This document shows, piece after piece, positions 8,318-63,363 of a stretch of DNA of 64,000 nucleotides (its first letter is position 1; each line of letters begins with the position of its first letter). Source of the stretch: Velocimicrobium porci (GTDB lineage: Bacteria; Bacillota; Clostridia; Lachnospirales; Lachnospiraceae); the NCBI RefSeq assembly GCF_009696045.1, contig NZ_VUMT01000013.1, positions 14,816 to 78,815 of the forward strand, read 5' to 3'. Under the pieces are notes generated by a model. It did no database searches. It saw nothing but the letters and a program-made list of their open reading frames with translations, and was not told where the DNA came from. Made by a program: the position numbers and the translations under genes.

Positions 8318-11068
8318 ATGAGTAACAAAATCTCTGGCAAAAGCCATTCGCATTCAAGCTATCATGCAGCAACACCAAGCAGAAATACTGCTAAATCCTC
8401 TCCTTCGAAAACCTCAAGCTCTTCAAGTAAAAACAGCACTAGCACTTCATCAAAAGCAACAACTAGACCAGCAGCTAAAACGGTAACTAAGCCTGCCACT
8501 AAACCAGTAACTAAAACGACAACTAAATCAAATACTTCAACTTCGTCCTCAAAAAAAACGGATAAGAAAATTAGTTCTAATGAAGTTAAAAAAAACTCCA
8601 CAGACTCTTCAAAAAAGGATGTAAAATCGAAAGAAAAAAATATAGCGAAAAATTTCATTAGTTTAAACTCTAAACAATCAGCAAAACCCAAAAAGCCACA
8701 TAAACCTGTACCCACTTCAAATCAAAAAATAGAAACAGGTCTTCCATTTCCTACAATACCAATTGCTCAATGTGATTTTTACATAAAGGCCATAAAGGAA
8801 TGGTATAAAACTCATGCTGAAGCTCCTGCAAATGGAAATTATACAGGTTTTACTTCGGAAAATTTAAACTCTTATGACAGCTTTATTCCAATTAATAATC
8901 CAATACAAAAGGAGCCCCCGAACCAATTAAATTCCAGCCCAGTCAATTTCCATCCGATAAACCCTGGCATGACCAAACCAAATCTCTCCAACAATACTTC
9001 ATCAAAAAAAAATGAACCTTCCAAAAATATTATTATTTCAAGCAAAGATGTTGTAGTATTAAAGACAAACACGGGTAATAAAACTCCTGTCTCAAAAAAA
9101 CAGGAGAAAAAGAAAGTATTTTTTAATTCAAAAAAAGAGGAAGTACAGTGGACACCAAAAAAAGAGAAGGTAAATAAAAGTGTCCTAACAACAAAAGCAA
9201 CCATCAAACAAGTTATTTCAAAAACAAATGTTAAAAACAAGCACGCTTCTATCTCCCAGCTTCCTATTGAAAAGAATAAGCAAACAAATTCCTTAAGTTC
9301 TTGGAATAAAAATAACCTTTTTAATCATATTCGTTCAGAAAAGAAAAAAGCACTTAATCCTCTTTCTTCTCTTATCCCTGAAAAACAGACGATAACAGAA
9401 ATTATAAATAAGCAAGAGGCAAAGCGAACCTTGTCTTTCGCAAAGACTTTAATCGCTTCCTTAAATCAGGCAACAAAACGTAAATCACACACAACAGGCT
9501 ACTACGCTTCTTTAGAAAAGGAAAAGCAACTCCAAGAACAGGAAAAGCAAAAGAGAAAAAAGGCAGAACTAGCAGAAAAAACAAAAAAAGAAACCAATAA
9601 GAAACTCGAAACAAAGCAAAATTATGATAAAAAACACCACATTGATTTTGGAAAAATAAACGCTACGATTCATTATCGTGGCACAGGAAGTTCTAATAAG
9701 TCCAGAAATCAAACTATTAGGAAACCATCTTTAACATATTCCGGATTAATACACCCTTTGGAGTATCATAAGCCAAACCTAACAAAACTATCACAGCCTT
9801 CTAAAGCAAAACGTTCCTCTTCTAGTAAGCATAAAGGAAAGAAAAAGACAAAGAATACGAAAAGTTCAGAACAAAAAAACGATGGATTTATAGGAAAATT
9901 CTGTAGCAATATAAAGAGTGGACTACACACACTAAAGAACAAGGTAAATCATGCTTATCATGATACAAAATCCAAAGTAACAAATTGGTTTATGAGCAGG
10001 AAAGTAAAACAAAAAACAAAAACAAAAAAATCCAAGACTCATAAAAAAAATAACACTTCCAAAAACCATTCACATCCACATGCGATAAAAGTAAAAGTTA
10101 AAAACTCGCAAAAAAAAGCACACTCCGCAAAACCTGGCAAGCATCATACTATTGCAAAAAAACCGACAGTCCATTCAACTCACTCCTCGCAGTCAAAAGC
10201 AAATGCAAAAAAAGCAACAAAAAACGGTCATGTCATAGATAACGTCCAAACTGCTTTAGACTTCGCCGGTATAGTGTTTGATGGAGCAGATTTAGTAAAT
10301 GCCGGAATTTATTATGTAAGAGGAAAGAAACTGGATGCAACCATATCCGCATTAGGTTCGCTCCCATTTGTAGGAGAAACTGCAAAAGCTGGAAAATATG
10401 CCATAAAACTTTCCAAAGGTGCAAAACTGGCGAAAGGTACAAAGTATGTTGCAAAAGTTTCAAAAACAGAGAAAGACGTCGTACATATTTACAAAATAGG
10501 AAAAGACGGAAAAAAACTCCTCAAATATAAAGGAACCATCCAAGCAATTGGAAAAGGTAGCAACCGGCTAAAAAATAGTGAAAAGGTCTTGAAAAAGGCA
10601 ACGGAAAAGGGGTATCATGTTGTAAGAAATGCCCCAAAGGTAAAAAAAGCAACAAAAGGAACAAAGAAAGCAACTTCCTTGGAAAAGGGACTAAAGGGTG
10701 TTCGTGGTTCGAAAGTAAAAAATAGTAAGAAGGTAGCAAAAAAGCATAAGAGTGGTAGTGGCTCTGTAATAAAAAATATACAATCAAAATCTCCACAGCA
10801 ATTAATTGAAGATGGATGGGAAGACATTACAAATCCTAAAATGGCAGCAAACACAAACTCAAGAGAATTTTATGACCCAAAGTCAGGTTTAAAAATAAGA
10901 TTTGATAAAGGGGTTGATGGTGCAAATGGATTTGAAGCAGTAGACCATTATCATGTAATGAATCCAAATTATACAAACAAAAAAGTTGATTATTATTTGG
11001 ATATAGATGGAAAACCTGTCGGAAAAGGGTCAAAGGCATCTCATATCGTAATTAAAGGAGAAGAATAA
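8318..11068 (+). CDS. giant lysine/serine/threonine-rich protein with a pre-toxin-TG-like motif and a C-terminal toxin-like module (polymorphic-toxin candidate)
   Basis: The ORF is 916 aa and uninterrupted, which is notable in very AT-rich DNA. The N-terminal ~130 aa are S/T/K low complexity, with no signal peptide and no TM segment. Near residue 640 the motif ALDFAGIVFDGADLVNAGIYYVRGKKLDATISALGSLPFVGETAKAGKYA resembles the PT-TG pre-toxin domain. KKATKG-type basic repeats follow, then a compact ~85-aa C-terminal module (GLKIRFDKGVDGANGFEAVDHYHVMNPNYTNKKVDYYLDIDGKPVGKGSKASHIVIKG). Confidence 0.6.
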   Translation: MSNKISGKSHSHSSYHAATPSRNTAKSSPSKTSSSSSKNSTSTSSKATTRPAAKTVTKPATKPVTKTTTKSNTSTSSSKKTDKKISSNEVKKNSTDSSKKDVKSKEKNIAKNFISLNSKQSAKPKKPHKPVPTSNQKIETGLPFPTIPIAQCDFYIKAIKEWYKTHAEAPANGNYTGFTSENLNSYDSFIPINNPIQKEPPNQLNSSPVNFHPINPGMTKPNLSNNTSSKKNEPSKNIIISSKDVVVLKTNTGNKTPVSKKQEKKKVFFNSKKEEVQWTPKKEKVNKSVLTTKATIKQVISKTNVKNKHASISQLPIEKNKQTNSLSSWNKNNLFNHIRSEKKKALNPLSSLIPEKQTITEIINKQEAKRTLSFAKTLIASLNQATKRKSHTTGYYASLEKEKQLQEQEKQKRKKAELAEKTKKETNKKLETKQNYDKKHHIDFGKINATIHYRGTGSSNKSRNQTIRKPSLTYSGLIHPLEYHKPNLTKLSQPSKAKRSSSSKHKGKKKTKNTKSSEQKNDGFIGKFCSNIKSGLHTLKNKVNHAYHDTKSKVTNWFMSRKVKQKTKTKKSKTHKKNNTSKNHSHPHAIKVKVKNSQKKAHSAKPGKHHTIAKKPTVHSTHSSQSKANAKKATKNGHVIDNVQTALDFAGIVFDGADLVNAGIYYVRGKKLDATISALGSLPFVGETAKAGKYAIKLSKGAKLAKGTKYVAKVSKTEKDVVHIYKIGKDGKKLLKYKGTIQAIGKGSNRLKNSEKVLKKATEKGYHVVRNAPKVKKATKGTKKATSLEKGLKGVRGSKVKNSKKVAKKHKSGSGSVIKNIQSKSPQQLIEDGWEDITNPKMAANTNSREFYDPKSGLKIRFDKGVDGANGFEAVDHYHVMNPNYTNKKVDYYLDIDGKPVGKGSKASHIVIKGEE

Positions 11069-47504: not shown

Positions 47505-47962
47505 AACTTGTCACCATAAATCTTTCCGTCTTCTAACCGAATCTTTCGCTCCGCCAGTTCTGCTATCCCGTTATCGTGTGTAATCATTATAATTGTCTGC
47601 CCAAATTTTTTACTTGACATCTGAATCAGGTCCAAGACATCCTGACCTGTTTTACTGTCTAAGTTTCCAGTCGGTTCATCCGCAAGAATAATTGCAGGTT
47701 TTGTCACAAGTGCCCGCGCCATTGCAACCCGCTGTTGCTGACCTCCCGATAAATGATTTGGCATAGTATGTATTTTAGAACGAATTCCAAGTGCTTCTAT
47801 AACAGTATCTACATACTCTTTATCAATTTTTTGCTTATCAAGTTGAATTGGCAAAACAATATTTTCATAAACGTTAAGTAATGGAAGTAAATTATAATTT
47901 TGAAAAACAAAACCAATATTTCTTCTCCAAAAATATGTATATTTATTCCGTTTTTGCGAATA
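47501..47962 (-). pseudogene. 5'-truncated MacB-type ABC ATPase (Walker A region absent)
   Basis: The reading frame is open only from 47962. It encodes ...RNKYTYFWRRNIGFVFQNYNLLPLLNVYENIVLPIQLD..LSGGQQQRVAMARAL..ILADEPTGNLD. An in-frame TAA lies at 47963-47965, inside a -10 box. There is no ATG or GTG start and no Walker A. The ~75 N-terminal residues have no coding space before sigA. Confidence 0.5.
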
Positions 47963-54708: not shown

Positions 54709-55368
54709 ATGGGAAATTACACAACTGTTATCTTTGATTTAGATGGAACTTTATTAGCAACATTAGAAGATCTTACAGACAGTGTTAATTATGCACTTGC
54801 CTTTTATCATTTTCCTTTAAAATCAATAGAAGAAGTGCGTCAGTTTGTTGGCAATGGTGTACGCCGCCTAATGGAACTTTCCGTCCCTAATGGTACACAA
54901 AATCCAAAATTTGAAGAAACATTTGATTTGTTCAAAAAACATTATAATTCCAACTGTCAGAATAAAACAAAACCTTATGATGGAATTTATAACATGCTCT
55001 CTACGTTATTAGAACATCAGTATAAAATTGCAATTGTTTCAAATAAGATTCATTCTGCCGTTGCTGAATTGAATCAATATTATTTCAAAGATTTTGTCAC
55101 GGTTGCAATTGGAGAAAAAGAGGGAATTGCCAAAAAACCTGCTCCTGACACCGTAAACGAAGCACTGCGACTTCTTGGCTCAACTAACGAAGAAGCTATT
55201 TATATTGGTGATTCTGATGTTGATATCGAAACTGCAAAAAATGCTAAAATGCCTTGTATTTCTGTTACATGGGGTTTTCGAGATAAAAATTTCTTACTTG
55301 CTCATGATGCAAAAATATTAATCGATAGACCAGAAGAATTACTTGCGACTTTAGAAAATATAGAATAA
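54709..55368 (+). CDS. HAD-superfamily hydrolase (phosphoglycolate phosphatase / PpaX-like)
   Basis: FDLDGTL motif I, SNK motif, GDSDVD motif IV. Confidence 0.8.
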   Translation: MGNYTTVIFDLDGTLLATLEDLTDSVNYALAFYHFPLKSIEEVRQFVGNGVRRLMELSVPNGTQNPKFEETFDLFKKHYNSNCQNKTKPYDGIYNMLSTLLEHQYKIAIVSNKIHSAVAELNQYYFKDFVTVAIGEKEGIAKKPAPDTVNEALRLLGSTNEEAIYIGDSDVDIETAKNAKMPCISVTWGFRDKNFLLAHDAKILIDRPEELLATLENIE

Positions 55369-55375
55369 TCAAAAA

Positions 55376-55440
55376 TAAAAAGCAGAATTTTGTAACTAAA
55401 ACCGCTAAGACAAATACATATTACAAAATTCTGCTTTTTT
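55376..55440. terminator. bidirectional terminator hairpin between the convergent HAD and patatin genes
   Basis: AAAAAGCAGAATTTTGTAA(N25)TTACAAAATTCTGCTTTTT is a 19-bp stem flanked by A and T runs. Confidence 0.55.
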
Positions 55441-55455
55441 TATCTTTAAAGTTTG

Positions 55456-56295
55456 CTACACCTCAAACAATTGTTTAATTTCATCCATTCGCTGTTTTGC
55501 CAAACGCACTCCCTCGTCATAAGCAAATTGCAGCTTTTTCGTGTCCTTTTCAAAACTATTGATTGGCACTTCCGGACGAATAACAACTGCTTGTCCTTCT
55601 CTTTCCAATTGATTACAAAATGCAACTGTTTCGTTATACGCTTCATGCCGATGCAATAAAATCTTAGCCAGTTCTGGATATTTTTTATTCATCAGTTTTG
55701 CCGTTAGTCTGGTTGAACGACCCAATTTCTTTTGATAATCCGCCGTTCTCGTAAGCACAATCAAGTGCTTCTGATTCCCATCCTCAATTGCCTTCCGAAT
55801 CGGAATTGGATCACAAATACCACCATCAAAGTATGGTATATTGTCTAAGTAAATTGCTGGAAAGAACATTGGCAATGCACAGGTTGCTCTTAACATCGTG
55901 AAATTTTTATCCATCTCAAGTCCATTTTTATATTCTGGCTTTGCTGTTAAGGCATTACTAACGCCAACTAATATTGTTCCTTCATAGCTTTGATACGTCT
56001 CCCAGTCAAAAGGCTCCAATTCATTCGGTATCTCCCCAAAGATAAAATCTAACCCAAATAAACTCTTCTGAACCTTATAATTTTTGACTCCTAAATAACG
56101 CTTATCATTTCTGTATTTCATTCCTATATCCAAATTCCGCTTTGCCTGTTTGGATATATAAGAGATTCCATTCGATATTCCAGCAGACACTCCTATACAA
56201 TACGGAAACATTATCTCTTCCTCTAATAACGCATCCATAACTCCACAACTGAAAATTGGTCGAAATGTACCTCCTTCTAGTACTAAGCTAGGCAT
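55456..56295 (-). CDS. patatin-like phospholipase
   Basis: The MPSLVLEGGTFR...GVSAG patatin motifs are present. The start is the ATG at 56295, with GAGGAG 9 nt upstream. Confidence 0.8.
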   Translation of the reverse strand: MPSLVLEGGTFRPIFSCGVMDALLEEEIMFPYCIGVSAGISNGISYISKQAKRNLDIGMKYRNDKRYLGVKNYKVQKSLFGLDFIFGEIPNELEPFDWETYQSYEGTILVGVSNALTAKPEYKNGLEMDKNFTMLRATCALPMFFPAIYLDNIPYFDGGICDPIPIRKAIEDGNQKHLIVLTRTADYQKKLGRSTRLTAKLMNKKYPELAKILLHRHEAYNETVAFCNQLEREGQAVVIRPEVPINSFEKDTKKLQFAYDEGVRLAKQRMDEIKQLFEV

Positions 56296-56558
56296 TTTGG
56301 TCATCTCCTCATTTTTTCTATTCACATCTTATTAGTTTTTCCAAAAATTTTGTCTTCTTACAGTGCATAGTAATTACTATACCACTTTCTCTCTCAAATG
56401 TCTTAAGCAAATAGAAAAATTTTCAGATATTCCATGCCTTAAATATTAACTGCTCCTAATACGCTAAATAACTTACGCACATTTATTAATACACTTCTCT
56501 CCCTAATCTCCCATTTCATATTACTACACTTGGTTTTCATACTATGTAGAACCCAATC

Positions 56559-56672
56559 TTATAAATTTTCTGGCTCTTTTGGCTGTTTCATTGCCCACAA
56601 AGAAGCTGAGCCAGCAGCTGCATGAGCTACATGAATACCCAAAAGTGACAATAGTTTTTGCAATAATTGCAT
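56559..56672 (-). CDS. agrD: candidate AgrD autoinducing-peptide precursor (37 aa, not in the ORF track)
   Basis: Manual translation gives MQLLQKLLSLLGIHVAHAAAGSASLWAMKQPKEPENL. The RBS is AAGGAGGTGGAG, 7 nt upstream. The gene lies 78 bp downstream of agrB. It has an amphipathic N-terminal leader and a charged C-terminal tail, but no cysteine. Confidence 0.45.
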   Translation of the reverse strand: MQLLQKLLSLLGIHVAHAAAGSASLWAMKQPKEPENL

Positions 56673-56750
56673 TTTCTCCACCTCCTTAACAATACTAATC
56701 ACCAATACACAAAATATAACTCCCTAAATTTTATGGTTATACATTTGCAA

Positions 56751-57332
56751 CTATTTACTCACAGCCTCCCTTCCGTAAATTTCCTTTATCATTAAAATTG
56801 CAACCATAAATAAAGTTACAATTATCATGATACCAATCTCACTATGTTTTAATACCAACATAATTCCTGAAACACTCCAAAATGCCATAAGCGCCTGGCT
56901 AATCTTTCTGCACTTTTTTTTCTTTTGAACTGTTAAAATCTTATTAGGATTTTCTATTGGTGCAAACCATATGGTACAGACACAATAGACTGTAAGCATT
57001 AGGAATAGAAAAATTGTACTTCCACCCGACTCTTTTAAAATATATACTACGCTTTCATAAATTAAGAATGTCATAGCCAAGCATAAATTACATGCCAAAT
57101 AAGTCTGAGCATGATAACCACCCGTATACATTCTCGTAATAACAAAAACTACAAGAAATACTATTCCTTCTTTAAGGCTGCCACTTAATACACTTAAAAG
57201 TAATACTATTGTATAGCCAACAATAGTAGAAATTAAAACTTCGTAACCGTATTGACAAATCGCCCGTTCTTCTTCCTTTATACAGTTTTTAGATACTAAA
57301 AAATCAGCCATCATTTTTGCAATTATTTCCAT
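56751..57332 (-). CDS. agrB: accessory gene regulator protein B (AgrB peptidase)
   Basis: A polytopic 193-aa protein with RMYTGGYHA, matching the AgrB catalytic His/Cys region. Confidence 0.8.
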   Translation of the reverse strand: MEIIAKMMADFLVSKNCIKEEERAICQYGYEVLISTIVGYTIVLLLSVLSGSLKEGIVFLVVFVITRMYTGGYHAQTYLACNLCLAMTFLIYESVVYILKESGGSTIFLFLMLTVYCVCTIWFAPIENPNKILTVQKKKKCRKISQALMAFWSVSGIMLVLKHSEIGIMIIVTLFMVAILMIKEIYGREAVSK

Positions 57333-57383
57333 AAAACATCTCCCTTAGCAATATGATAACTGATTTTAAAATAAATTCAATAG

Positions 57384-57422
57384 TTTTGGCATACTTGGTA
57401 AGTTTTTGGCATAGTTGGTATC
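57384..57422 (-). promoter_or_regulatory. tandem direct repeats upstream of agrB (candidate LytTR/AgrA-type binding site)
   Basis: TTTTGGCATACTTGGTAAG and TTTTGGCATAGTTGGTATC are 20 bp apart start-to-start, ending ~50 bp upstream of the agrB start. Confidence 0.4.
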
Positions 57423-57470
57423 TTTTTCCTAGTTTTTTCCAAAATCCTATAGGAATTTCTATTCCTTTTT

Positions 57471-58814
57471 TTATAAAACAACATCACTATTTGTATTTGG
57501 CAAAAAAATATGTGTTATAAACCACCCATTTTTTTCATATTGTGTCATCATTCCTTCTTCCTCTTCTAATATCTGTTTAATACTTTTTAATCCATATCCA
57601 TGTAATTTCTTCTCTGATTTCGTTGTTCTCAACCCCGGATTAATTTTTAATACAGAGGTCTCAATAGAATTTTTAACACATATATCCAAATAGCCTTTTT
57701 GATTTGCAGAACTTATTACTATTCTAGGCTTTTTATCCTCCATTTTTTCACAAGCCTCCATTGCATTATCAAGTAAATTAGATATAATTATTCCCAAATT
57801 TAATGGGTTCTTATACCTTAACTCACCAAGAAATGCTGTTTCACAAGAAATTCCTTTTTCTCTGCAGATTGTAAATTTTGTGTTAATCACCGCATTAATT
57901 GTAGCATCACCAACATCTACAACCTCTAATATTAATTCTACCTTATTCTTTAAAAGCGAATTTAGATATTCTATAGCCTCTTCTGTATTTCCTTTTTGAA
58001 GAATACCAAGTGTAGTACTCAAATAATTTTTAATATCATGTCTTATTATTTGAAGTTGTTCAAATTCTTTTTCCCTATCTTCTAATAGTTGCCTTTGGCT
58101 TTTCTGACTTAATAGAATGCACTCATATTCTAATTGTCTTTCATGCACTGTATTTAACTGAAGCAGCATGAGGTATAATCCGACCAAAATGGCAAATAAG
58201 CCAAGATTAATTATTAAGACAAAAATTGCAATTCTTTCCTCAAACAACTGAGTTCTCATAATGACTAATAACGCAATTTCAATCATCAGGATTACAATAA
58301 AAGACCCCGCCATAATAAACCACTCTCGTCTTTGGAGCCGATTCGAAGAGCGTTTTAAAAAATGTAAAGCAGAAATAATCGAAAAATAATACACAATTTT
58401 ACATATTAAAACTACAATTACACGAATAATTCCCTTCCCTGGTTCCATCATTGAAGAAATTGGAATCCCCATTAACAAATTAACACCCAAAGGAACCAAC
58501 ATATTAATTAACCCTAATAATATGTATGCAACTGAAGCCGATATAAATATATCTTTTTTATTCCCGTCTATGCAAAGACACCCATATAACAAATAGCATA
58601 CAAATATAATAGCCGTCACACATTCCGTTAAAAATGAGTTATCATTTACGGCAATCATTCCGCAAAGCGTACAAAAAATAAAAAAAATTATTCTTCCCTG
58701 TACAATCTTTTCACTTTTTTTATTTTCACTGACAAAATGTTCAATAAAATACATTAAGATATAGCTGTCAATTACACAAGCCAAAACCTCAAATCCCCAA
58801 TAAACGATGCTCAT
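57471..58814 (-). CDS. agrC: AgrC-like (HPK10) sensor histidine kinase
   Basis: A multi-TM N-terminal sensor is followed by an RHDIKNYL H-box and a C-terminal GHKL ATPase (HGYGLKSIKQILEEEEG). A 4-bp overlap joins it to the upstream response regulator. Confidence 0.8.
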   Translation of the reverse strand: MSIVYWGFEVLACVIDSYILMYFIEHFVSENKKSEKIVQGRIIFFIFCTLCGMIAVNDNSFLTECVTAIIFVCYLLYGCLCIDGNKKDIFISASVAYILLGLINMLVPLGVNLLMGIPISSMMEPGKGIIRVIVVLICKIVYYFSIISALHFLKRSSNRLQRREWFIMAGSFIVILMIEIALLVIMRTQLFEERIAIFVLIINLGLFAILVGLYLMLLQLNTVHERQLEYECILLSQKSQRQLLEDREKEFEQLQIIRHDIKNYLSTTLGILQKGNTEEAIEYLNSLLKNKVELILEVVDVGDATINAVINTKFTICREKGISCETAFLGELRYKNPLNLGIIISNLLDNAMEACEKMEDKKPRIVISSANQKGYLDICVKNSIETSVLKINPGLRTTKSEKKLHGYGLKSIKQILEEEEGMMTQYEKNGWFITHIFLPNTNSDVVL

Positions 58815-59572
58815 TGGTATCTCCTCCCCATATACTCAGCCAATTGTTGTTTAACTTCCTCTTTTTTGCTCCGGCTTAAAGGAATGCTGATTTTATTTTC
58901 TAGCAGTAGCTCTTTATCTCCAACAAGATAAACCCATTCCGGATTTACTAAAAAACTGACATGAGGTCTTAAGAAATTGTATTGACCAAACTGTTCTTCC
59001 ATCTCTTTCATCGTTTCACGAATTTTATATTGTTTTTCGGCTGTATTAATAAAAATCCAGTGTCCTTTTACTTCCAAATATAAAATATCTTTTATACTTA
59101 TATTTCTCATAATTTTCTTGTCTTCAAACGTATAAACCATTCTGGACTGCAATATCTGTTCTTTGGCCGAAAGGTACGCCTCTTCTAATTCTTCCTCTAA
59201 ATATTGTTTTCTTATAAATCGAAATGGTGCATAATATAAAGATTGAAATACTTTATTTTCATAATTGGTAATAAATATCAGTAAGCTCTCTCGGCCGAGC
59301 TCTCGAATCCTTTTAGCAAGTTCCATACCATTCAGATTCGGCATTTCAATATCCAGACAAATAATATCAAAATCTTCTTGCTGAACTTTCTTTAAAAGTA
59401 CTTCACCATTAGTAAAAGTTTTTATTTTTAACTCGGAATCATCAGAAATAGAAAGTAACTTTTCCTTTTCCAATGATACCATTGTTTCTTCATCGTCACA
59501 TATTGCAACGCTAATCACATGCTCACCTACTTGTCCTAGTTCTCGATAATAAAAGATTACCACATTTTTCAA
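58811..59572 (-). CDS. agrA: LytTR-family response regulator (AgrA-like)
   Basis: A receiver domain (VAICDDE...DFDIICLDIEMPNLNG) plus a C-terminal LytTR DNA-binding domain. The true start may be the internal GTG near 59512, which has an AGGTGA RBS. Confidence 0.8.
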   Translation of the reverse strand: MKNVVIFYYRELGQVGEHVISVAICDDEETMVSLEKEKLLSISDDSELKIKTFTNGEVLLKKVQQEDFDIICLDIEMPNLNGMELAKRIRELGRESLLIFITNYENKVFQSLYYAPFRFIRKQYLEEELEEAYLSAKEQILQSRMVYTFEDKKIMRNISIKDILYLEVKGHWIFINTAEKQYKIRETMKEMEEQFGQYNFLRPHVSFLVNPEWVYLVGDKELLLENKISIPLSRSKKEEVKQQLAEYMGRRYQ

Positions 59573-59596
59573 ATATCATCTACTAATAAAACATAA

Positions 59597-59654
59597 AAAA
59601 ATGCAAATACAACTCTGAGTAAATATTCTTTCCCAAAATCATATTTGCATTTTT
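59597..59654. promoter_or_regulatory. 13-bp perfect inverted repeat between the sulfur-redox gene stop and the agr operon
   Basis: AAAAATGCAAATA(N32)TATTTGCATTTTT. On the minus strand it is followed by a T-run. It could be a terminator for 59669..60622 or an operator upstream of the agr operon. Confidence 0.4.
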
Positions 59655-59668
59655 ATAATATTACAACT

Positions 59669-60622
59669 TTAGCAAGTAGCCCCGCCTGTCATGTGTAAGT
59701 CGGCATCAAGAATTTCCTGTTTTCGCTCTAATAACTCATCGGATAGGAGCAGGGCTTCTACCTTATCAAAACCAACCCGATCGATTGTTTGTGAAAAACG
59801 CTCTCCTGTCTTTCCCTGTTCCCGATAAAATAGAATTGCCTTTTCAATTACATTTAACGCTTCTTCTTTATCTTTAAAGATTTTTCCAAGTGCTTTTCCC
59901 TGGGCAACTTTCTTTCCCCAGCGACCGCCGATATAAATTTTGTATCCTTGTACTCCATCTTCAATCGCATCAAAATGACAATTTCCGATGCAGCGACCGC
60001 AATTATTACAGACAGCTTTATCTATATTAAGAATACCATCCTGAACCTTCGCCGCCCCAACCGGACAGGCTTTCTCGATTGAACATTTTTTACAACCATT
60101 ACAGCTGTCCTCATCAAAATTGGGAATCCGCTGACCAATAATACCAAGGTCATTTAAATCTGGTTTTACACAGTTGTTAGGACATCCTCCAACTGCAATT
60201 TTAAACTTATGAGGCAGGCGAACAGAAGAATAACCTTCAAAAAAACGATGGTGAATCTCTTCTGATAATTCAAATGTATCAATCAGACCATATTGGCACG
60301 TTGTTCCTTTGCATGATACAATCGGACGTACTTTTGAGCCAGTACCTCCTGTAACTAACCCTTCCTTTGCAATATACGCTCTAAAATCTTCAATCTTATC
60401 ATATGGAATTCCCTGTACTTCAACTGTCAGGCGTGTTGTAAATGTAACAATCCCATTTCCAAACAATTCCGCTGCCTCTGCAATGCATTTATGCTGAGCA
60501 GCCGTAATTTTCCCGTTTATTGTAATAATTCTTCCAGAAAAATTATCTGTTCCTTTGTTACTTAAAAATCCTAACGCTTTTACTCTCTTTTCATCTTCTG
60601 CACTTACTGTTAATGTTGCCAT
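59669..60622 (-). CDS. small sulfite/nitrite-reductase-family protein with ferredoxin-like 4Fe-4S domain (Dsr-like protein / AsrC-like)
   Basis: The siroheme-Fe4S4 coupling cysteines (SCKGTTCQ...GCPNNC) are present, plus an inserted ferredoxin domain with CNGCKKCSIEKACP and CNNCGRCIGNC. Confidence 0.6.
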   Translation of the reverse strand: MATLTVSAEDEKRVKALGFLSNKGTDNFSGRIITINGKITAAQHKCIAEAAELFGNGIVTFTTRLTVEVQGIPYDKIEDFRAYIAKEGLVTGGTGSKVRPIVSCKGTTCQYGLIDTFELSEEIHHRFFEGYSSVRLPHKFKIAVGGCPNNCVKPDLNDLGIIGQRIPNFDEDSCNGCKKCSIEKACPVGAAKVQDGILNIDKAVCNNCGRCIGNCHFDAIEDGVQGYKIYIGGRWGKKVAQGKALGKIFKDKEEALNVIEKAILFYREQGKTGERFSQTIDRVGFDKVEALLLSDELLERKQEILDADLHMTGGATC

Positions 60623-60642
60623 CCATATCCTCCTTTATGTTC

Positions 60643-62271
60643 TTAAAATAGCTCCACTTCATTAAAAGTAGTTCCGCCTTCTAACACTAATGTGTTGGTA
60701 TAACCATAGTATTTTAATCTGTTTTGAAGCATATAAGCTCTTTTTCCTTTTGTACATACAAGTAATAACTTTGCATCTTTTTTATAATCGGGAAGTTCTC
60801 CCTCCACATCAATCAAATTTATAAATGGTGCCCCCTCAATAGAAGGTGTCATAGAAGCATCAATTATTTGATAGCCTTCTGCTTTTCCCTCTTTGTATTC
60901 CATTGGAGTCATTGTTTCAAACGTACCATCCATTTTATTGAGCAAAATATTAACGGTATGTGAAAATGGGTGAATTGCCGTAGAAAATGGTGGTGCATAA
61001 GCCAAATCCATATGCTCCAGCTGATTTAATGTTGCCTCCATCGTAATCGCCGTAACAGCAATATCAACTATTTTATCAACCTCGCCCTTTCCGGCAACTT
61101 GAATGCCCAACAGTTTCTTCGTTTCCTTCTCGGCAATCATTTTTATAATAAAATTAGATGCCCCCGGATAGTAATGAGCCTTATCGTCAACCACAGTAAT
61201 TACGCTGACAAAATCGTAACCTGCATCTTTTGCTGCCTGTTCTGTAAGACCAGTTCGCCCTACATTTAAACCTGGTAATTTGGCAACACCAGTTCCAAGC
61301 ACCCCCGGATATACATGAAGTCCTCCACTGATATTTTTTGCCACAAGACGTCCCTCAATATTGGCAGAAGAACCCATTGGAGACCAGTGAGGAGCTTTTG
61401 TAATTCTGTTTGTAACACAGGCACAATCTCCTAAAGCATAAATATCCTCATCATTTGTCTGCAGATATTCATTTACCTTTACCGTATTATTTGGCATACG
61501 CTCAATTCCTGTATTTTCTAAAAACTCTGTATTTGGTCGGATTCCCAAAGATAAAATGACAGCATCTGCCTTCATTGCCCGTCTGCTTGTCACTACTTTT
61601 TCTACCTTTTCTTCTCCAGCAATTCCTTCCAGTGCAGTATTGGTAAATGTCATAATTCCACGGTCTGCCAATTGATTTTCAACATATTCTGCAAACTCAC
61701 TATCAAATCCAGGAAGAATATGCGGTGCCATATCAATCACGGATACTTTTATTCCTTTCGAAGCAAGGTTTTCGGCTATCTCTAAACCGATAAAACCACC
61801 ACCGGCGACAACTGCCCTTTTAAGTTCGCCACGTTCTACTGCAGAACGCAATGCAACTGCATCTTCCGGTGTCCTCATGAAGTAAACACCAGCTAACTCG
61901 ATACCCTCAACCGATGGCTTCACCGGGGAAGCTCCAGAAGCAATCACCAGCTTATCATACTTATAGAAAGATTTTTCATTTGTTTTGCAATTAACCGCTT
62001 CAATTATTTTTTCCTCGCGATTTAAACTAACTACTTCAGTTCCCGTTATTACTTCTGCACCAGTTAACTTCGCAAATTTTTGAGGGGTATTTACAATCAG
62101 TTGTTCCCTCTCATGAATTAAATCTCCTACATAATAAGGAAGACCACAGCCGGCATAAGAAATATCATCACTTTTTGTGATAATTGTAACTTTAATATCC
62201 CTGTTCTCTCTCTTTAATTTTGCTGCCACTTTTGTTCCGGCAGCAACACCTCCAATAACTATAACGTTCAC
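60643..62271 (-). CDS. CoA-disulfide reductase / NADH oxidase fused to a C-terminal rhodanese domain (CoADR-RHD, NAD(P)H persulfide/polysulfide reductase-like)
   Basis: A GGVAAG FAD site and an SYAGCGLPYY redox cysteine are present, plus a second NAD(P) site, GGGFIG. The C-terminal rhodanese Cys loop reads LVCTKGKRA. Confidence 0.75.
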   Translation of the reverse strand: MNVIVIGGVAAGTKVAAKLKRENRDIKVTIITKSDDISYAGCGLPYYVGDLIHEREQLIVNTPQKFAKLTGAEVITGTEVVSLNREEKIIEAVNCKTNEKSFYKYDKLVIASGASPVKPSVEGIELAGVYFMRTPEDAVALRSAVERGELKRAVVAGGGFIGLEIAENLASKGIKVSVIDMAPHILPGFDSEFAEYVENQLADRGIMTFTNTALEGIAGEEKVEKVVTSRRAMKADAVILSLGIRPNTEFLENTGIERMPNNTVKVNEYLQTNDEDIYALGDCACVTNRITKAPHWSPMGSSANIEGRLVAKNISGGLHVYPGVLGTGVAKLPGLNVGRTGLTEQAAKDAGYDFVSVITVVDDKAHYYPGASNFIIKMIAEKETKKLLGIQVAGKGEVDKIVDIAVTAITMEATLNQLEHMDLAYAPPFSTAIHPFSHTVNILLNKMDGTFETMTPMEYKEGKAEGYQIIDASMTPSIEGAPFINLIDVEGELPDYKKDAKLLLVCTKGKRAYMLQNRLKYYGYTNTLVLEGGTTFNEVELF

Positions 62272-62439: not shown

Positions 62440-63363
62440 ATGACAATCCGACATCTGAAAATTTTTATCGAAGTGGCAGATTCAGGAAAAATGAGTCTTG
62501 CAGCTGCTAAGTTTTATATTTCACAGCCTACCGTCAGTCAGGCAATCCGGGAATTAGAAGAGCATTATGGTGTTTTACTTTTTGAGCGTCTTTCCAAGCG
62601 TCTTTATATTACTCCTGAAGGTAAAAAGTTGCTCTCATATGCCAGACAGGCAGTAAAACAATTTGACGAACTGGAGGAGGCAATGCAAATCACCAATCAA
62701 ACAAGGCAAATCCGAATCGGTTCTACTATTACAGTTGGTGTCTGTCTTTTGCCAACTATTATTAACGATTTAAAAAAACAATATCCAGATTCAGAAACTT
62801 ATTCCTTTGTCAGTAATACAAGAACAATTGAACAAAAATTATTGCAGTCTGAACTTGATGTCGGGCTTGTAGAGGGTACAATTAAGCACCGGGATTTGGT
62901 CAGTATTCCAATGATTGACGATTTCCTGGTTCTTGCCTGCAGCCCCAGCCACCCGTTTGCCACTAAAAAAACACTTCATCTCAATGAACTTGCAGACCAG
63001 GCATTTGTAATGCGAGAGCAGGGAAGTGGAACAAGGGAGTTATTTGAACAATACCTTAACAAATTTCATATTCCAATAAAAATAGCAGAAGAAGCCAATT
63101 GTCCGGGAGCAATTAAATATGCCATCCTTTTAAACCAGTATCTTTCTGCTATATCAATTCGTCTTTTAAAAGATGAAATAAACGAAAATAAAATCCATGT
63201 TATAAAAAATCATGAAAACGAATGGAACCGCCATTTTTATCTTGTATATCATAAAGATAAAGTCTTTTCTGATATGCTTTATTGTTTTACGGACATCGTA
63301 AAGGAATATAAAAGTCCTGAATTTTTAGACGGTTTACAAATGGGAGAATTGACAAGATTCTAA
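62440..63363 (+). CDS. LysR-family transcriptional regulator
   Basis: The N-terminal HTH reads MTIRHLKIFIEVADSGKMSLAAAKFYISQPTVSQAIRELEEHYGVLLFER. It is divergent from the CoADR-RHD gene. Confidence 0.85.
   Translation: MTIRHLKIFIEVADSGKMSLAAAKFYISQPTVSQAIRELEEHYGVLLFERLSKRLYITPEGKKLLSYARQAVKQFDELEEAMQITNQTRQIRIGSTITVGVCLLPTIINDLKKQYPDSETYSFVSNTRTIEQKLLQSELDVGLVEGTIKHRDLVSIPMIDDFLVLACSPSHPFATKKTLHLNELADQAFVMREQGSGTRELFEQYLNKFHIPIKIAEEANCPGAIKYAILLNQYLSAISIRLLKDEINENKIHVIKNHENEWNRHFYLVYHKDKVFSDMLYCFTDIVKEYKSPEFLDGLQMGELTRF

What the first reader, a model, noticed from the sequence alone, without database searches (positions are those of the whole stretch)
56559..59572. agr-type quorum-sensing locus in non-canonical order (agrA-agrC-agrB-agrD) with a cysteine-less AgrD candidate
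AgrB (RMYTGGYHA motif), an HPK10 AgrC-like kinase and a LytTR regulator are clear. A 37-aa ORF with a strong RBS lies 78 bp after agrB. It has an AgrD-like leader helix and a charged tail (KQPKEPENL), but no Cys. The autoinducing peptide would therefore need a Ser-based lactone (candidate region GSASLWAM) or be linear. Gene order is RR-HK-AgrB-AgrD rather than agrBDCA. Tandem repeats TTTTGGCATA(C/G)TTGGTA (57384-57422) sit between agrC and agrB, where an autoinduced LytTR-dependent promoter would be expected. The adjacent patatin phospholipase, ending at 56295, could be a regulated target.
Basis: partly seen in the sequence, partly recalled or inferred. Interest (0 to 1): 0.6.

Follow-up and report, generated by a model that had tools for sequence, protein, structure and literature searches.

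The report
Serine-type agr quorum-sensing locus
This is an ordinary peptide quorum-sensing (agr-type) gene set from the pig-gut bacterium Velocimicrobium porci, whose signal peptide closes its ring through a serine instead of the usual cysteine; this variant is already known and proved common among gut Clostridia.

Summary
On the minus strand lie a LytTR response regulator (58811-59518), an AgrC-like kinase (57471-58814), AgrB (56751-57332) and a 37-aa ORF (56559-56672).

- **The ORF is AgrD.** It passes NCBIfam's AgrD model TIGR04223. The identical protein is already named "cyclic lactone autoinducer peptide [Velocimicrobium porci]" in NCBI.
- **The ring is predicted to close through Ser24.** Nine orthologous peptides lack Cys and keep A-S-x-W-x-M-KQPxEPxNL. 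Across 34 AgrD relatives, Ser24 sits in a column holding only Ser (23) or Cys (11), five residues before the conserved xQPxEP. The predicted signal is therefore a five-residue lactone, SLWAM. This matches the mass-spectrometry-verified Ser-lactone pentapeptide of Clostridium thermocellum.
- **The gene order is usual for this clade.** RR-HK-AgrB is found in 21 of 36 related loci.
- **The repeats fit a LytTR-activated promoter.** They are non-random, conserved in all orthologs and sit 4 nt upstream of a conserved -35/-10. Many distant loci carry analogous repeats of different sequence.
- **The patatin link is weak.** That gene has its own conserved promoter, carries no repeat box, and is adjacent only in the close clade.

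Verdict: a new, uncharacterised member of a known kind. Interest is low.

The parts
58811..59518 (-). agrA-like response regulator (receiver + LytTR DNA-binding domain), 235 aa from a GTG start. The mechanical ORF extends to a TTG at 59572.
   Evidence: Pfam Response_reg E=1.3e-16 and LytTR E=2.7e-19. The GTG start and AGGTGAG RBS are conserved, and orthologs are 235 aa.
59554..59562 (-). Putative extended -10 (TGGTAATCT) of the agrA-agrC promoter. It lies inside the spurious 5' extension of the RR ORF.
   Evidence: The block aTGGTAAnCT is conserved between the window and L003/L004/L006/L007. Its role as a promoter is inferred.
59594..59657 (-). Hairpin followed by a U-run: the terminator of the upstream sulfite-reductase-like gene. 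It insulates the agrA-agrC unit.
   Evidence: Inverted repeat I1. Fold energy -29.4 kcal/mol, z=-5.7 against shuffles.
57471..58814 (-). agrC-like sensor histidine kinase, 447 aa, with a polytopic N-terminal sensor. Its start overlaps the RR stop by 4 nt.
   Evidence: HATPase_c_5 E=5e-21. Its only PDB hit is AgrC 4BXI. Hydrophobic segments and the IRHDIKN H-box are shown.
57384..57419 (-). Two direct repeats, TACCAACTATGCCAAA (57419..57404) and TACCAAGTATGCCAAA (57399..57384), with a 20-nt period. Predicted binding site of the LytTR regulator.
   Evidence: non-random. Conserved in all orthologous loci at 20-21 nt period while the flanking DNA diverges.
57353..57380 (-). agrB-agrD promoter: -35 TTGAAT (57380..57375), 16-nt spacer, -10 TATCAT (57358..57353). 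It starts 4 nt after the proximal repeat.
   Evidence: Promoter scan. Both hexamers are conserved in orthologs, where the -10 is TATTAT.
56751..57332 (-). agrB: membrane cysteine endopeptidase/cyclase, 193 aa, with the catalytic pair H74/C81.
   Evidence: PF04647 E=2e-36. R67, G71, G72, Y73, H74, A75, C81 and P125 are invariant in 22 homologs. The AF2 model is all-helical with pLDDT 91.8.
56559..56672 (-). agrD: 37-aa autoinducing-peptide precursor. Leader is residues 1-23, core is S24-M28, and the follower is KQPKEPENL.
   Evidence: TIGR04223 scores above its cutoff. Identical protein named in NCBI. A 37-aa gene is called in nine of the ten orthologous loci and lies inside a longer 64-aa call in L006. 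Variable sites by codon position are 15/10/30.
56589..56603 (-). Codons for the predicted ring S24-L-W-A-M28 (Ser-lactone pentapeptide).
   Evidence: The S/C-only alignment column lies 5 residues before the conserved xQPxEP. The geometry is the same as the verified C. thermocellum S25-F29 lactone (PMC5322536).
55456..56295 (-). Neighbouring patatin-like phospholipase (279 aa from ATG 56295). It has its own promoter: AAGACA 56404..56399 and TGgTATAGT ending at 56376. It is not shown to belong to the system.
   Evidence: Patatin and DUF6363 domains. The promoter block is conserved. It has no LytTR-box copy. No terminator lies between agrD and it.

Best explanation
This is a complete agr-type autoinducing-peptide quorum-sensing system of Velocimicrobium porci (Lachnospiraceae), organised as two units.

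**Unit 1: agrA-agrC.** The two genes are translationally coupled by a 4-nt overlap. They are read from a conserved promoter with an extended -10 and supply the sensor kinase and the LytTR regulator.

**Unit 2: agrB-agrD.** It is read from a promoter whose -35 is preceded by two 16-bp direct repeats with a 20-bp period.

**Proposed mechanism (inferred from family knowledge and comparison, not measured)**
1. The 37-aa AgrD associates with the membrane through its N-terminal helix.
2. AgrB (His74/Cys81) cuts after Met28. This removes KQPKEPENL and forms an acyl-enzyme.
3. The hydroxyl of Ser24 attacks, giving a five-residue lactone ring, SLWAM.
4. The leader is removed, plausibly at GSA|S. This would leave a tail-less pentapeptide with calculated [M+H]+ 589.280.
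5. The exported peptide is sensed by the polytopic kinase, which phosphorylates the regulator.
6. The regulator binds the repeats and boosts agrBD transcription, giving positive feedback.

The output regulon is unknown.
For: - **Domains:**
- **AgrD identity:** TIGR04223 scores above its cutoff, and the exact protein is annotated as a cyclic lactone autoinducer peptide.
- **Expression-independent coding evidence:** a 37-aa gene is called in nine of the ten orthologous loci and lies inside a longer 64-aa call in L006. The nine distinct coding sequences show third-codon-position variation of 15/10/30.
- **Ser24 as the ring nucleophile:** it is invariant in the nine distinct ortholog peptides, whereas Ser22 is not. 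In 34 AgrD relatives the same column holds only Ser (23) or Cys (11), always 5 residues before [YKH]QPxEP, and 32 of the 34 hit TIGR04223.
- **Experimental precedent with identical spacing:** C. thermocellum has a leader cut at A24|S25, an S25-F29 lactone, then Y30 and P35 (PMC5322536).
- **AgrB catalytic pair:** His and Cys are invariant.
- **Repeats:** they are non-random and conserved, together with the -35/-10, while upstream DNA diverges. They occur nowhere else as a pair in the window or the loci. About 12 of 19 distant loci have their own 19-21-bp-spaced repeats upstream of agrB.
Against: - Nothing here was measured: no transcription, peptide, ring chemistry or DNA binding.
- The N-terminal cleavage site is a guess.
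- The AgrD score is only about 4 bits above the family cutoff.
- The genome outside the 64-kb window could not be checked for further agr loci.
- The repeat unit (16 bp, TACCAAnnATGCCAAA) does not resemble the S. aureus AgrA box in sequence. Assigning it to this regulator rests on position, spacing and conservation.
Confidence: 0.8

Rival explanations
1. The mature signal is not the lactone. It is a homodetic cyclic pentapeptide, cyclo(SLWAM). If the leader is cut directly before Ser24, the free amine of Ser could take over the acyl group (O-to-N shift). This parallels the S-to-N shift shown for tail-less Cys AIPs in Clostridia.
For: A small-residue motif (G-S-A / G-A-A) directly precedes Ser24 in all orthologs. 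The verified C. thermocellum peptide is tail-less. Molloy et al. show the S-to-N rearrangement for Cys peptides and state that the fate of tail-less Ser lactones is unresolved (PMC8251862).
Against: The N-terminal cut site is unknown. The C. thermocellum product was reported as a lactone and matched a synthetic standard. Sequence data cannot distinguish the two isomers.
Confidence: 0.25
2. The peptide is exported and sensed as a linear peptide. AgrB acts only as a protease or exporter, because there is no Cys.
For: The precursor has no Cys. Linear-peptide systems with LytTR regulators and HPK10 kinases exist (ComCDE-type; established knowledge).
Against: Ser occupies exactly the Cys column of the family. 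AgrB keeps the catalytic His/Cys pair. Three Ser-lactone AIPs are experimentally known. In C. thermocellum the linear version was inactive.
Confidence: 0.07
3. The ring uses Ser22, giving a seven-residue ring SASLWAM, rather than Ser24.
For: The window peptide has Ser at both positions 22 and 24. Larger rings exist, for example the 9-residue ring of GBAP.
Against: Position 22 is Ala in 6 of the 8 other distinct orthologs, while Ser24 is invariant. The family S/C column aligns with Ser24.
Confidence: 0.03
4. The locus chiefly controls the adjacent patatin-like phospholipase. Control would be by read-through from the induced agrBD transcript.
For: The patatin gene follows agrD on the same strand in every orthologous locus long enough to show it. 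No terminator-like structure lies in the 263-nt gap.
Against: The patatin gene has its own conserved -35 and extended -10. No repeat box lies upstream. No patatin gene is found at the 36 more distant agr loci. The whole neighbourhood (HAD, LrgAB) is syntenic in the close clade, so adjacency carries little information.
Confidence: 0.2

Closest known systems
Staphylococcus aureus agrBDCA (the archetype)
   Same: It has the same four components: AgrB with the His/Cys catalytic pair, a short AgrD with an amphipathic leader, 5-residue ring core and charged follower, a polytopic HPK10 kinase and a LytTR regulator. Paired direct repeats sit next to the -35 of the autoinduced promoter.
   Different: The gene order here is A-C then B-D, in two units on one strand. 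No divergent RNAIII-type transcript is evident. [quoted passage not shown] The repeat sequence is unrelated.
Clostridium (Acetivibrio) thermocellum Clo1313_2818 AgrD-type cyclic pentapeptide (PMC5322536)
   Same: It is a Ser-type AgrD with the same register: small residue | Ser, a 5-residue ring, then an aromatic or basic residue followed by QPxEP. The lactone pentapeptide was verified by LC-MS/MS against a synthetic standard.
   Different: That agrD is an orphan with no adjacent agrB/C/A. Here the full system is present. The ring sequences differ.
Enterococcus faecalis fsr (GBAP) and Staphylococcus pseudintermedius AIP
   Same: Both are Ser-based lactone autoinducing peptides made by AgrB-family enzymes (PMC12312760).
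   Different: GBAP has a 9-residue ring and a 2-residue tail. The S. pseudintermedius AIP has a 4-residue tail. Both are from Bacilli with different gene order, and their precursors are not in the xQPxEP follower class.
Clostridial agr variants (C. difficile agr2, named 'agrACDB/agrACBD'; separate agrBD and agrCA operons)
   Same: These are Clostridia in which agr organisation departs from agrBDCA and RNAIII is absent (PMC3754575, PMC4885068, PMC12312760).
   Different: Those studied use Cys-type AgrD. The names in the literature are not reliable statements of gene order, so the order comparison rests on my own survey.
Gut-microbiome AIP families mined at scale (PMC11953309)
   Same: AgrB/AgrD pairs are abundant in human gut Firmicutes. 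The authors explicitly allow Cys or Ser ring formation.
   Different: V. porci and this peptide family were not singled out. I did not check their supplementary family lists.

Membership tests
agr-type autoinducing-peptide quorum sensing (AgrBDCA-like) | AgrB-family membrane endopeptidase with a conserved catalytic His and Cys | tested here: met
   PF04647 E=2e-36. H74 and C81, 7 residues apart, are invariant in 22 homologs.
agr-type autoinducing-peptide quorum sensing (AgrBDCA-like) | Adjacent short AgrD precursor: leader, ring core with Cys/Ser, charged follower | tested here: met
   TIGR04223 scores 22.5-23.6 bits against a cutoff of 19. The gene lies 78 nt after agrB with a strong RBS. The S/C column is in register.
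agr-type autoinducing-peptide quorum sensing (AgrBDCA-like) | HPK10-type polytopic sensor kinase | tested here: met
   HATPase_c_5. About 6-7 hydrophobic segments and an RHDIKN H-box. The only PDB hit is AgrC 4BXI, at a weak E=0.005.
agr-type autoinducing-peptide quorum sensing (AgrBDCA-like) | Response regulator with a LytTR DNA-binding domain | tested here: met
   Response_reg plus LytTR domains.
agr-type autoinducing-peptide quorum sensing (AgrBDCA-like) | Autoinduction: the regulator binds paired direct repeats at the promoter of the peptide-production genes | tested here: inconclusive
   Conserved paired repeats at 20-21 bp period abut the -35 of agrB. Analogous repeats occur in distant loci. 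Binding and induction cannot be tested in silico.
agr-type autoinducing-peptide quorum sensing (AgrBDCA-like) | Secreted cyclic (thio)lactone peptide that activates the kinase | not testable with these tools
   This needs LC-MS/MS and a reporter assay. The prediction is an SLWAM lactone with [M+H]+ 589.280.
NCBIfam TIGR04223 (AgrD family cyclic lactone autoinducer peptide) | Score at or above the curated cutoff | tested here: met
   23.6 bits for the 37-aa form and 22.5 bits for the 48-aa form, against a cutoff of 19.
Ser-lactone AIP subclass (C. thermocellum type) | Conserved Ser, not Cys, five residues before the follower cleavage site and ten residues before the second conserved Pro | tested here: met
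   Here the residues are S24, M28|K29 and P34. In C. thermocellum they are S25, F29|Y30 and P35.

The most novel reading that the evidence does not exclude
Ser-type AgrDs may form a large, coherent and almost unstudied class in gut and rumen Clostridia. In my sample they have short amphipathic leaders, always lie downstream of agrB, and have followers of the form [YK]QPxEP. Their tail-less lactones, here SLWAM, might rearrange spontaneously by O-to-N acyl shift. The true signal sensed by the kinase would then be an all-amide cyclic pentapeptide. This would extend the 'cAIP' chemistry shown for Cys peptides to the Ser class.
Probability: 0.2. Interest if true: 0.45.

Novelty: new member of a known kind. 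Interest (0 to 1): 0.2.

Why it matters
The locus adds one more uncharacterised agr system in a gut commensal, with a concrete and testable predicted signal. The signal is the SLWAM lactone or its lactam isomer, and the predicted operator is two TACCAAnnATGCCAAA boxes.

The modest wider point is that Ser-based AgrDs are usually called rare, yet they were the majority among the Clostridia relatives sampled here. Close orthologs show ring variants (SLWAM, SAWAM, SAWGM, SVWGM) that may define pherotypes.

None of this changes the understanding of how agr systems work.

Tried and rejected
- **Whole-library peptide search.** phmmer with the 37-aa peptide against 1.84 billion representatives gave only one true relative. 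It also gave one spurious repeat-protein hit, P0028, with a repeated GAGSVSLWDV...P motif. The peptide is too short for that search, so loci were reached through AgrB instead.
- **Word-indexed search.** The search with the 48-aa ORF returned only the exact NCBI protein.
- **First locus scan.** The first search for related loci attempt, with the 22-sequence alignment, failed for lack of a conserved stretch. A narrower alignment worked, but V. porci itself was not among the returned genomes. Other agr loci in its genome therefore could not be checked.
- **AgrB structure.** PDB has no sequence relative. A confident AF2 model (pLDDT 91.8) found no fold match. There is no solved AgrB to compare with.
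- **Rfam.** The scan of 55000-60000 found nothing meaningful. There is no RNAIII-like or riboswitch element.
- **Extra boxes.** A PWM scan for additional repeat boxes upstream of the RR gene or the patatin gene found none. The best other window hit (47756-47771) lies inside an ABC-ATPase coding sequence.
- **Sigma-54 reading of the repeats.** On the opposite strand the repeats read TTGGCATAnTTGGTA. The GG-to-TTG spacing is about 3 nt too short, and the site points antisense into the kinase gene, so I rejected this by inspection.
- **TTG start at 59572.** I rejected it for the regulator in favour of GTG 59518.
Full report
**Anatomy.** All genes of the finding lie on the minus strand. Reading 5' to 3':

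- **Response regulator.** It has receiver and LytTR domains (Pfam E=1.3e-16 and 2.7e-19).
- **Histidine kinase (447 aa).** Its ATG overlaps the regulator's stop by 4 nt. It has a HATPase_c_5 domain (E=5e-21), about 6-7 hydrophobic segments in the first 215 residues, and an IRHDIKN H-box. Its only PDB sequence match is the S. aureus AgrC catalytic domain 4BXI, at a weak E=0.005.
- **A 138-nt intergenic region.**
- **AgrB.** PF04647 E=2e-36.
- **A 78-nt gap**, then a 37-aa ORF preceded by AAGGAGG.

The regulator's listed TTG start (59572) is unlikely. GTG 59518, with RBS AGGTGAG, is conserved. The orthologs are all 235 aa. A conserved extended -10 (TGGTAATCT, 59562..59554) lies inside the supposed extension. 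Upstream of that, a strong hairpin with a U-run (59594-59657, z=-5.7) terminates the preceding sulfite-reductase-like gene.

**Identity of the small ORF.** The peptide MQLLQKLLSLLGIHVAHAAAGSASLWAMKQPKEPENL passes NCBIfam TIGR04223, 'AgrD family cyclic lactone autoinducer peptide' (22.5-23.6 bits against a cutoff of 19). The identical 37-aa protein is already in NCBI as 'cyclic lactone autoinducer peptide [Velocimicrobium porci]'. That also identifies the source as a pig-gut member of the Lachnospiraceae.

Ten metagenomic loci encode AgrB at 67-78% identity. In nine of them a 37-aa gene is called at the same place, and in L006 the same peptide lies inside a longer 64-aa call. The nine distinct coding sequences vary mostly at third codon positions (15/10/30 variable columns), as expected for a translated gene. 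Within the window there is no second AgrB or AgrD-like ORF.

**Which residue closes the ring.** None of the nine distinct ortholog peptides has a Cys. All keep A-S-x-W-x-M-KQP[KQ]EP[EK]NL. Ser24 is invariant, whereas Ser22 is Ala in most.

I then collected 36 loci from species-representative genomes using AgrB patterns and extracted the AgrD-like ORFs next to agrB. In an alignment of 34 such peptides, the column of Ser24 contains only Ser (23) or Cys (11). It always lies five residues before a conserved [YKH]QPxEP. Thirty-two of the 34 hit TIGR04223.

The experimentally verified AgrD-type peptide of C. thermocellum has exactly this register: leader cut A24|S25, lactone S25-F29, then Y30 and P35 (PMC5322536). 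Here the corresponding residues are A23|S24, S24-M28, K29 and P34.

AgrB retains the invariant His74 and Cys81. These correspond, from established knowledge of S. aureus AgrB, to the catalytic pair. The best-supported product is therefore a five-residue Ser-lactone, SLWAM. Whether it carries a tail is unknown. The ring chemistry is inferred, not measured.

**Gene order.** Relative to S. aureus agrBDCA the order is different, but it is not unusual in this clade. tblastn of the window's regulator and kinase against the 36 distant loci shows both genes upstream of agrB, on the same strand, in the order RR-HK-AgrB in 21 loci. At least one of them is upstream in 27. The taxa include Ruminococcus, Eubacterium, Lachnospiraceae, Oscillospiraceae and Fusibacter.

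Reviews already note that clostridial agr organisation differs from the staphylococcal one and that agrBD and agrCA can be separate operons (PMC12312760). C. difficile agr2 is written agrACDB/agrACBD, though such names are used loosely.

**The repeats.** On the gene strand the sequence reads TACCAACTATGCCAAA-N4-TACCAAGTATGCCAAA, then ACTA, then TTGAAT, 16 nt, TATCAT. An AGGGAG RBS and the agrB ATG follow.

- Only one other place in the 64-kb window has a comparable repeat at 19-23 nt spacing, and none appeared in 30 shuffles.
- In all orthologs the two boxes (20-21 nt period), the -35 and the -10 are conserved. The DNA between the kinase stop and the boxes is not alignable. This is a phylogenetic footprint.
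- A position weight matrix built from the 18 sites finds the pair only at this position in every locus.
- In 19 distant loci, about 12 have their own significant 12-mer repeats at 19-21 nt spacing, 70-135 nt upstream of agrB, with lineage-specific sequences.

From established knowledge of LytTR regulators (AgrA, ComE, PlnC), paired direct repeats about two helical turns apart, next to the -35, are the expected operator. This fits an autoinduced agrBD promoter. Binding remains untested.

**The patatin gene.** It follows agrD after 263 nt in every ortholog that is long enough, and no terminator-like structure lies between them. Against a regulatory link:

- It has its own conserved AAGACA-17-TGgTATAGT promoter.
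- It has no box.
- It is absent from the 36 distant agr loci.
- The entire neighbourhood (HAD hydrolase, LrgAB) is syntenic in the close clade, so adjacency carries little information.

I rate it a possible read-through target only.

**Comparison and novelty.** This is a member of the agr family by every sequence-testable criterion. Ser-lactone autoinducing peptides are known from S. pseudintermedius, E. faecalis (GBAP) and C. thermocellum. Large-scale mining of gut AIPs already allows for Ser or Cys rings (PMC11953309). The peptide is already correctly named in NCBI.

What is new is only the specific, uncharacterised system and its predicted signal and operator. The incidental observation that Ser-type AgrDs dominate among the relatives sampled comes from a sample biased by the AgrB search pattern.

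One open chemical question applies. Tail-less Cys AIPs in Clostridia rearrange to all-amide cyclopeptides, and the fate of tail-less Ser lactones is explicitly unresolved (PMC8251862).

**Verdict.** It is a new member of a known kind, of low interest.

Noticed in passing
P0020 (metagenomic AgrB homolog, 241 aa): The gene call fuses AgrB to a Ser-type AgrD-like tail (...KVCHGAASGYGMYQPKEPEAIKKLRK). This is either a real AgrB-AgrD fusion or a missed stop or frameshift. It recalls the old FsrB/FsrD in-frame arrangement.
   Followed up: no
Loci L011-L044: All 23 Ser-type AgrDs lie downstream of agrB and mostly have short, charged amphipathic leaders. Nine of 11 Cys-type AgrDs lie upstream of agrB and have longer hydrophobic leaders. 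The sample is small and biased by the AgrB search pattern.
   Followed up: partly
L014 4821-5189, L016 4789-5202, L017 4802-5266, L020 4772-5206, L024 4821-5303: In several distant Ser-type loci the gene right after agrD encodes a 120-160 aa protein with an N-terminal signal peptide and no obvious family. These are candidate co-regulated secreted products.
   Followed up: no
window 59669-62271 (minus strand) and 62440-63363 (plus strand): A sulfite/nitrite-reductase-like gene and a pyridine-nucleotide-disulfide oxidoreductase sit between the LysR regulator and the agr regulator. In orthologs L003/L004/L006/L007 the LysR gene is directly divergent from the agr regulator. This looks like a two-gene insertion in V. 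porci.
   Followed up: partly
Ortholog peptides from L001-L010 and kinases from L002-L007: Ring variants SLWAM, SAWAM, SAWGM and SVWGM occur among close relatives. The kinase sensor half is less conserved (50-67% identity) than the cytoplasmic half (66-73%). This is the pattern expected of pherotype divergence.
   Followed up: partly
L027 2773-3058: Two tandem Cys-type agrD-like ORFs follow one agrB (…GQACSITYCQPKEPENL… and …SSSQACWWWYNQPKEPEGM…).
   Followed up: no
L015 (contig CAVAPS010000039.1): The contig is filed under a 'Desulfovibrio piger' bin. It carries a Clostridia-type RR-HK-AgrB locus nearly matching L014/L016 (Ruminococcus/Eubacterium), so it is probably mis-binned.
   Followed up: no
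window 9514-9550: This is the only other 16-nt direct repeat with at most 1 mismatch at 19-23 nt spacing in the window (AGAAAAGGAAAAGCAA / AGAACAGGAAAAGCAA, 21-nt period). It is purine-rich and I did not examine it further.
   Followed up: no
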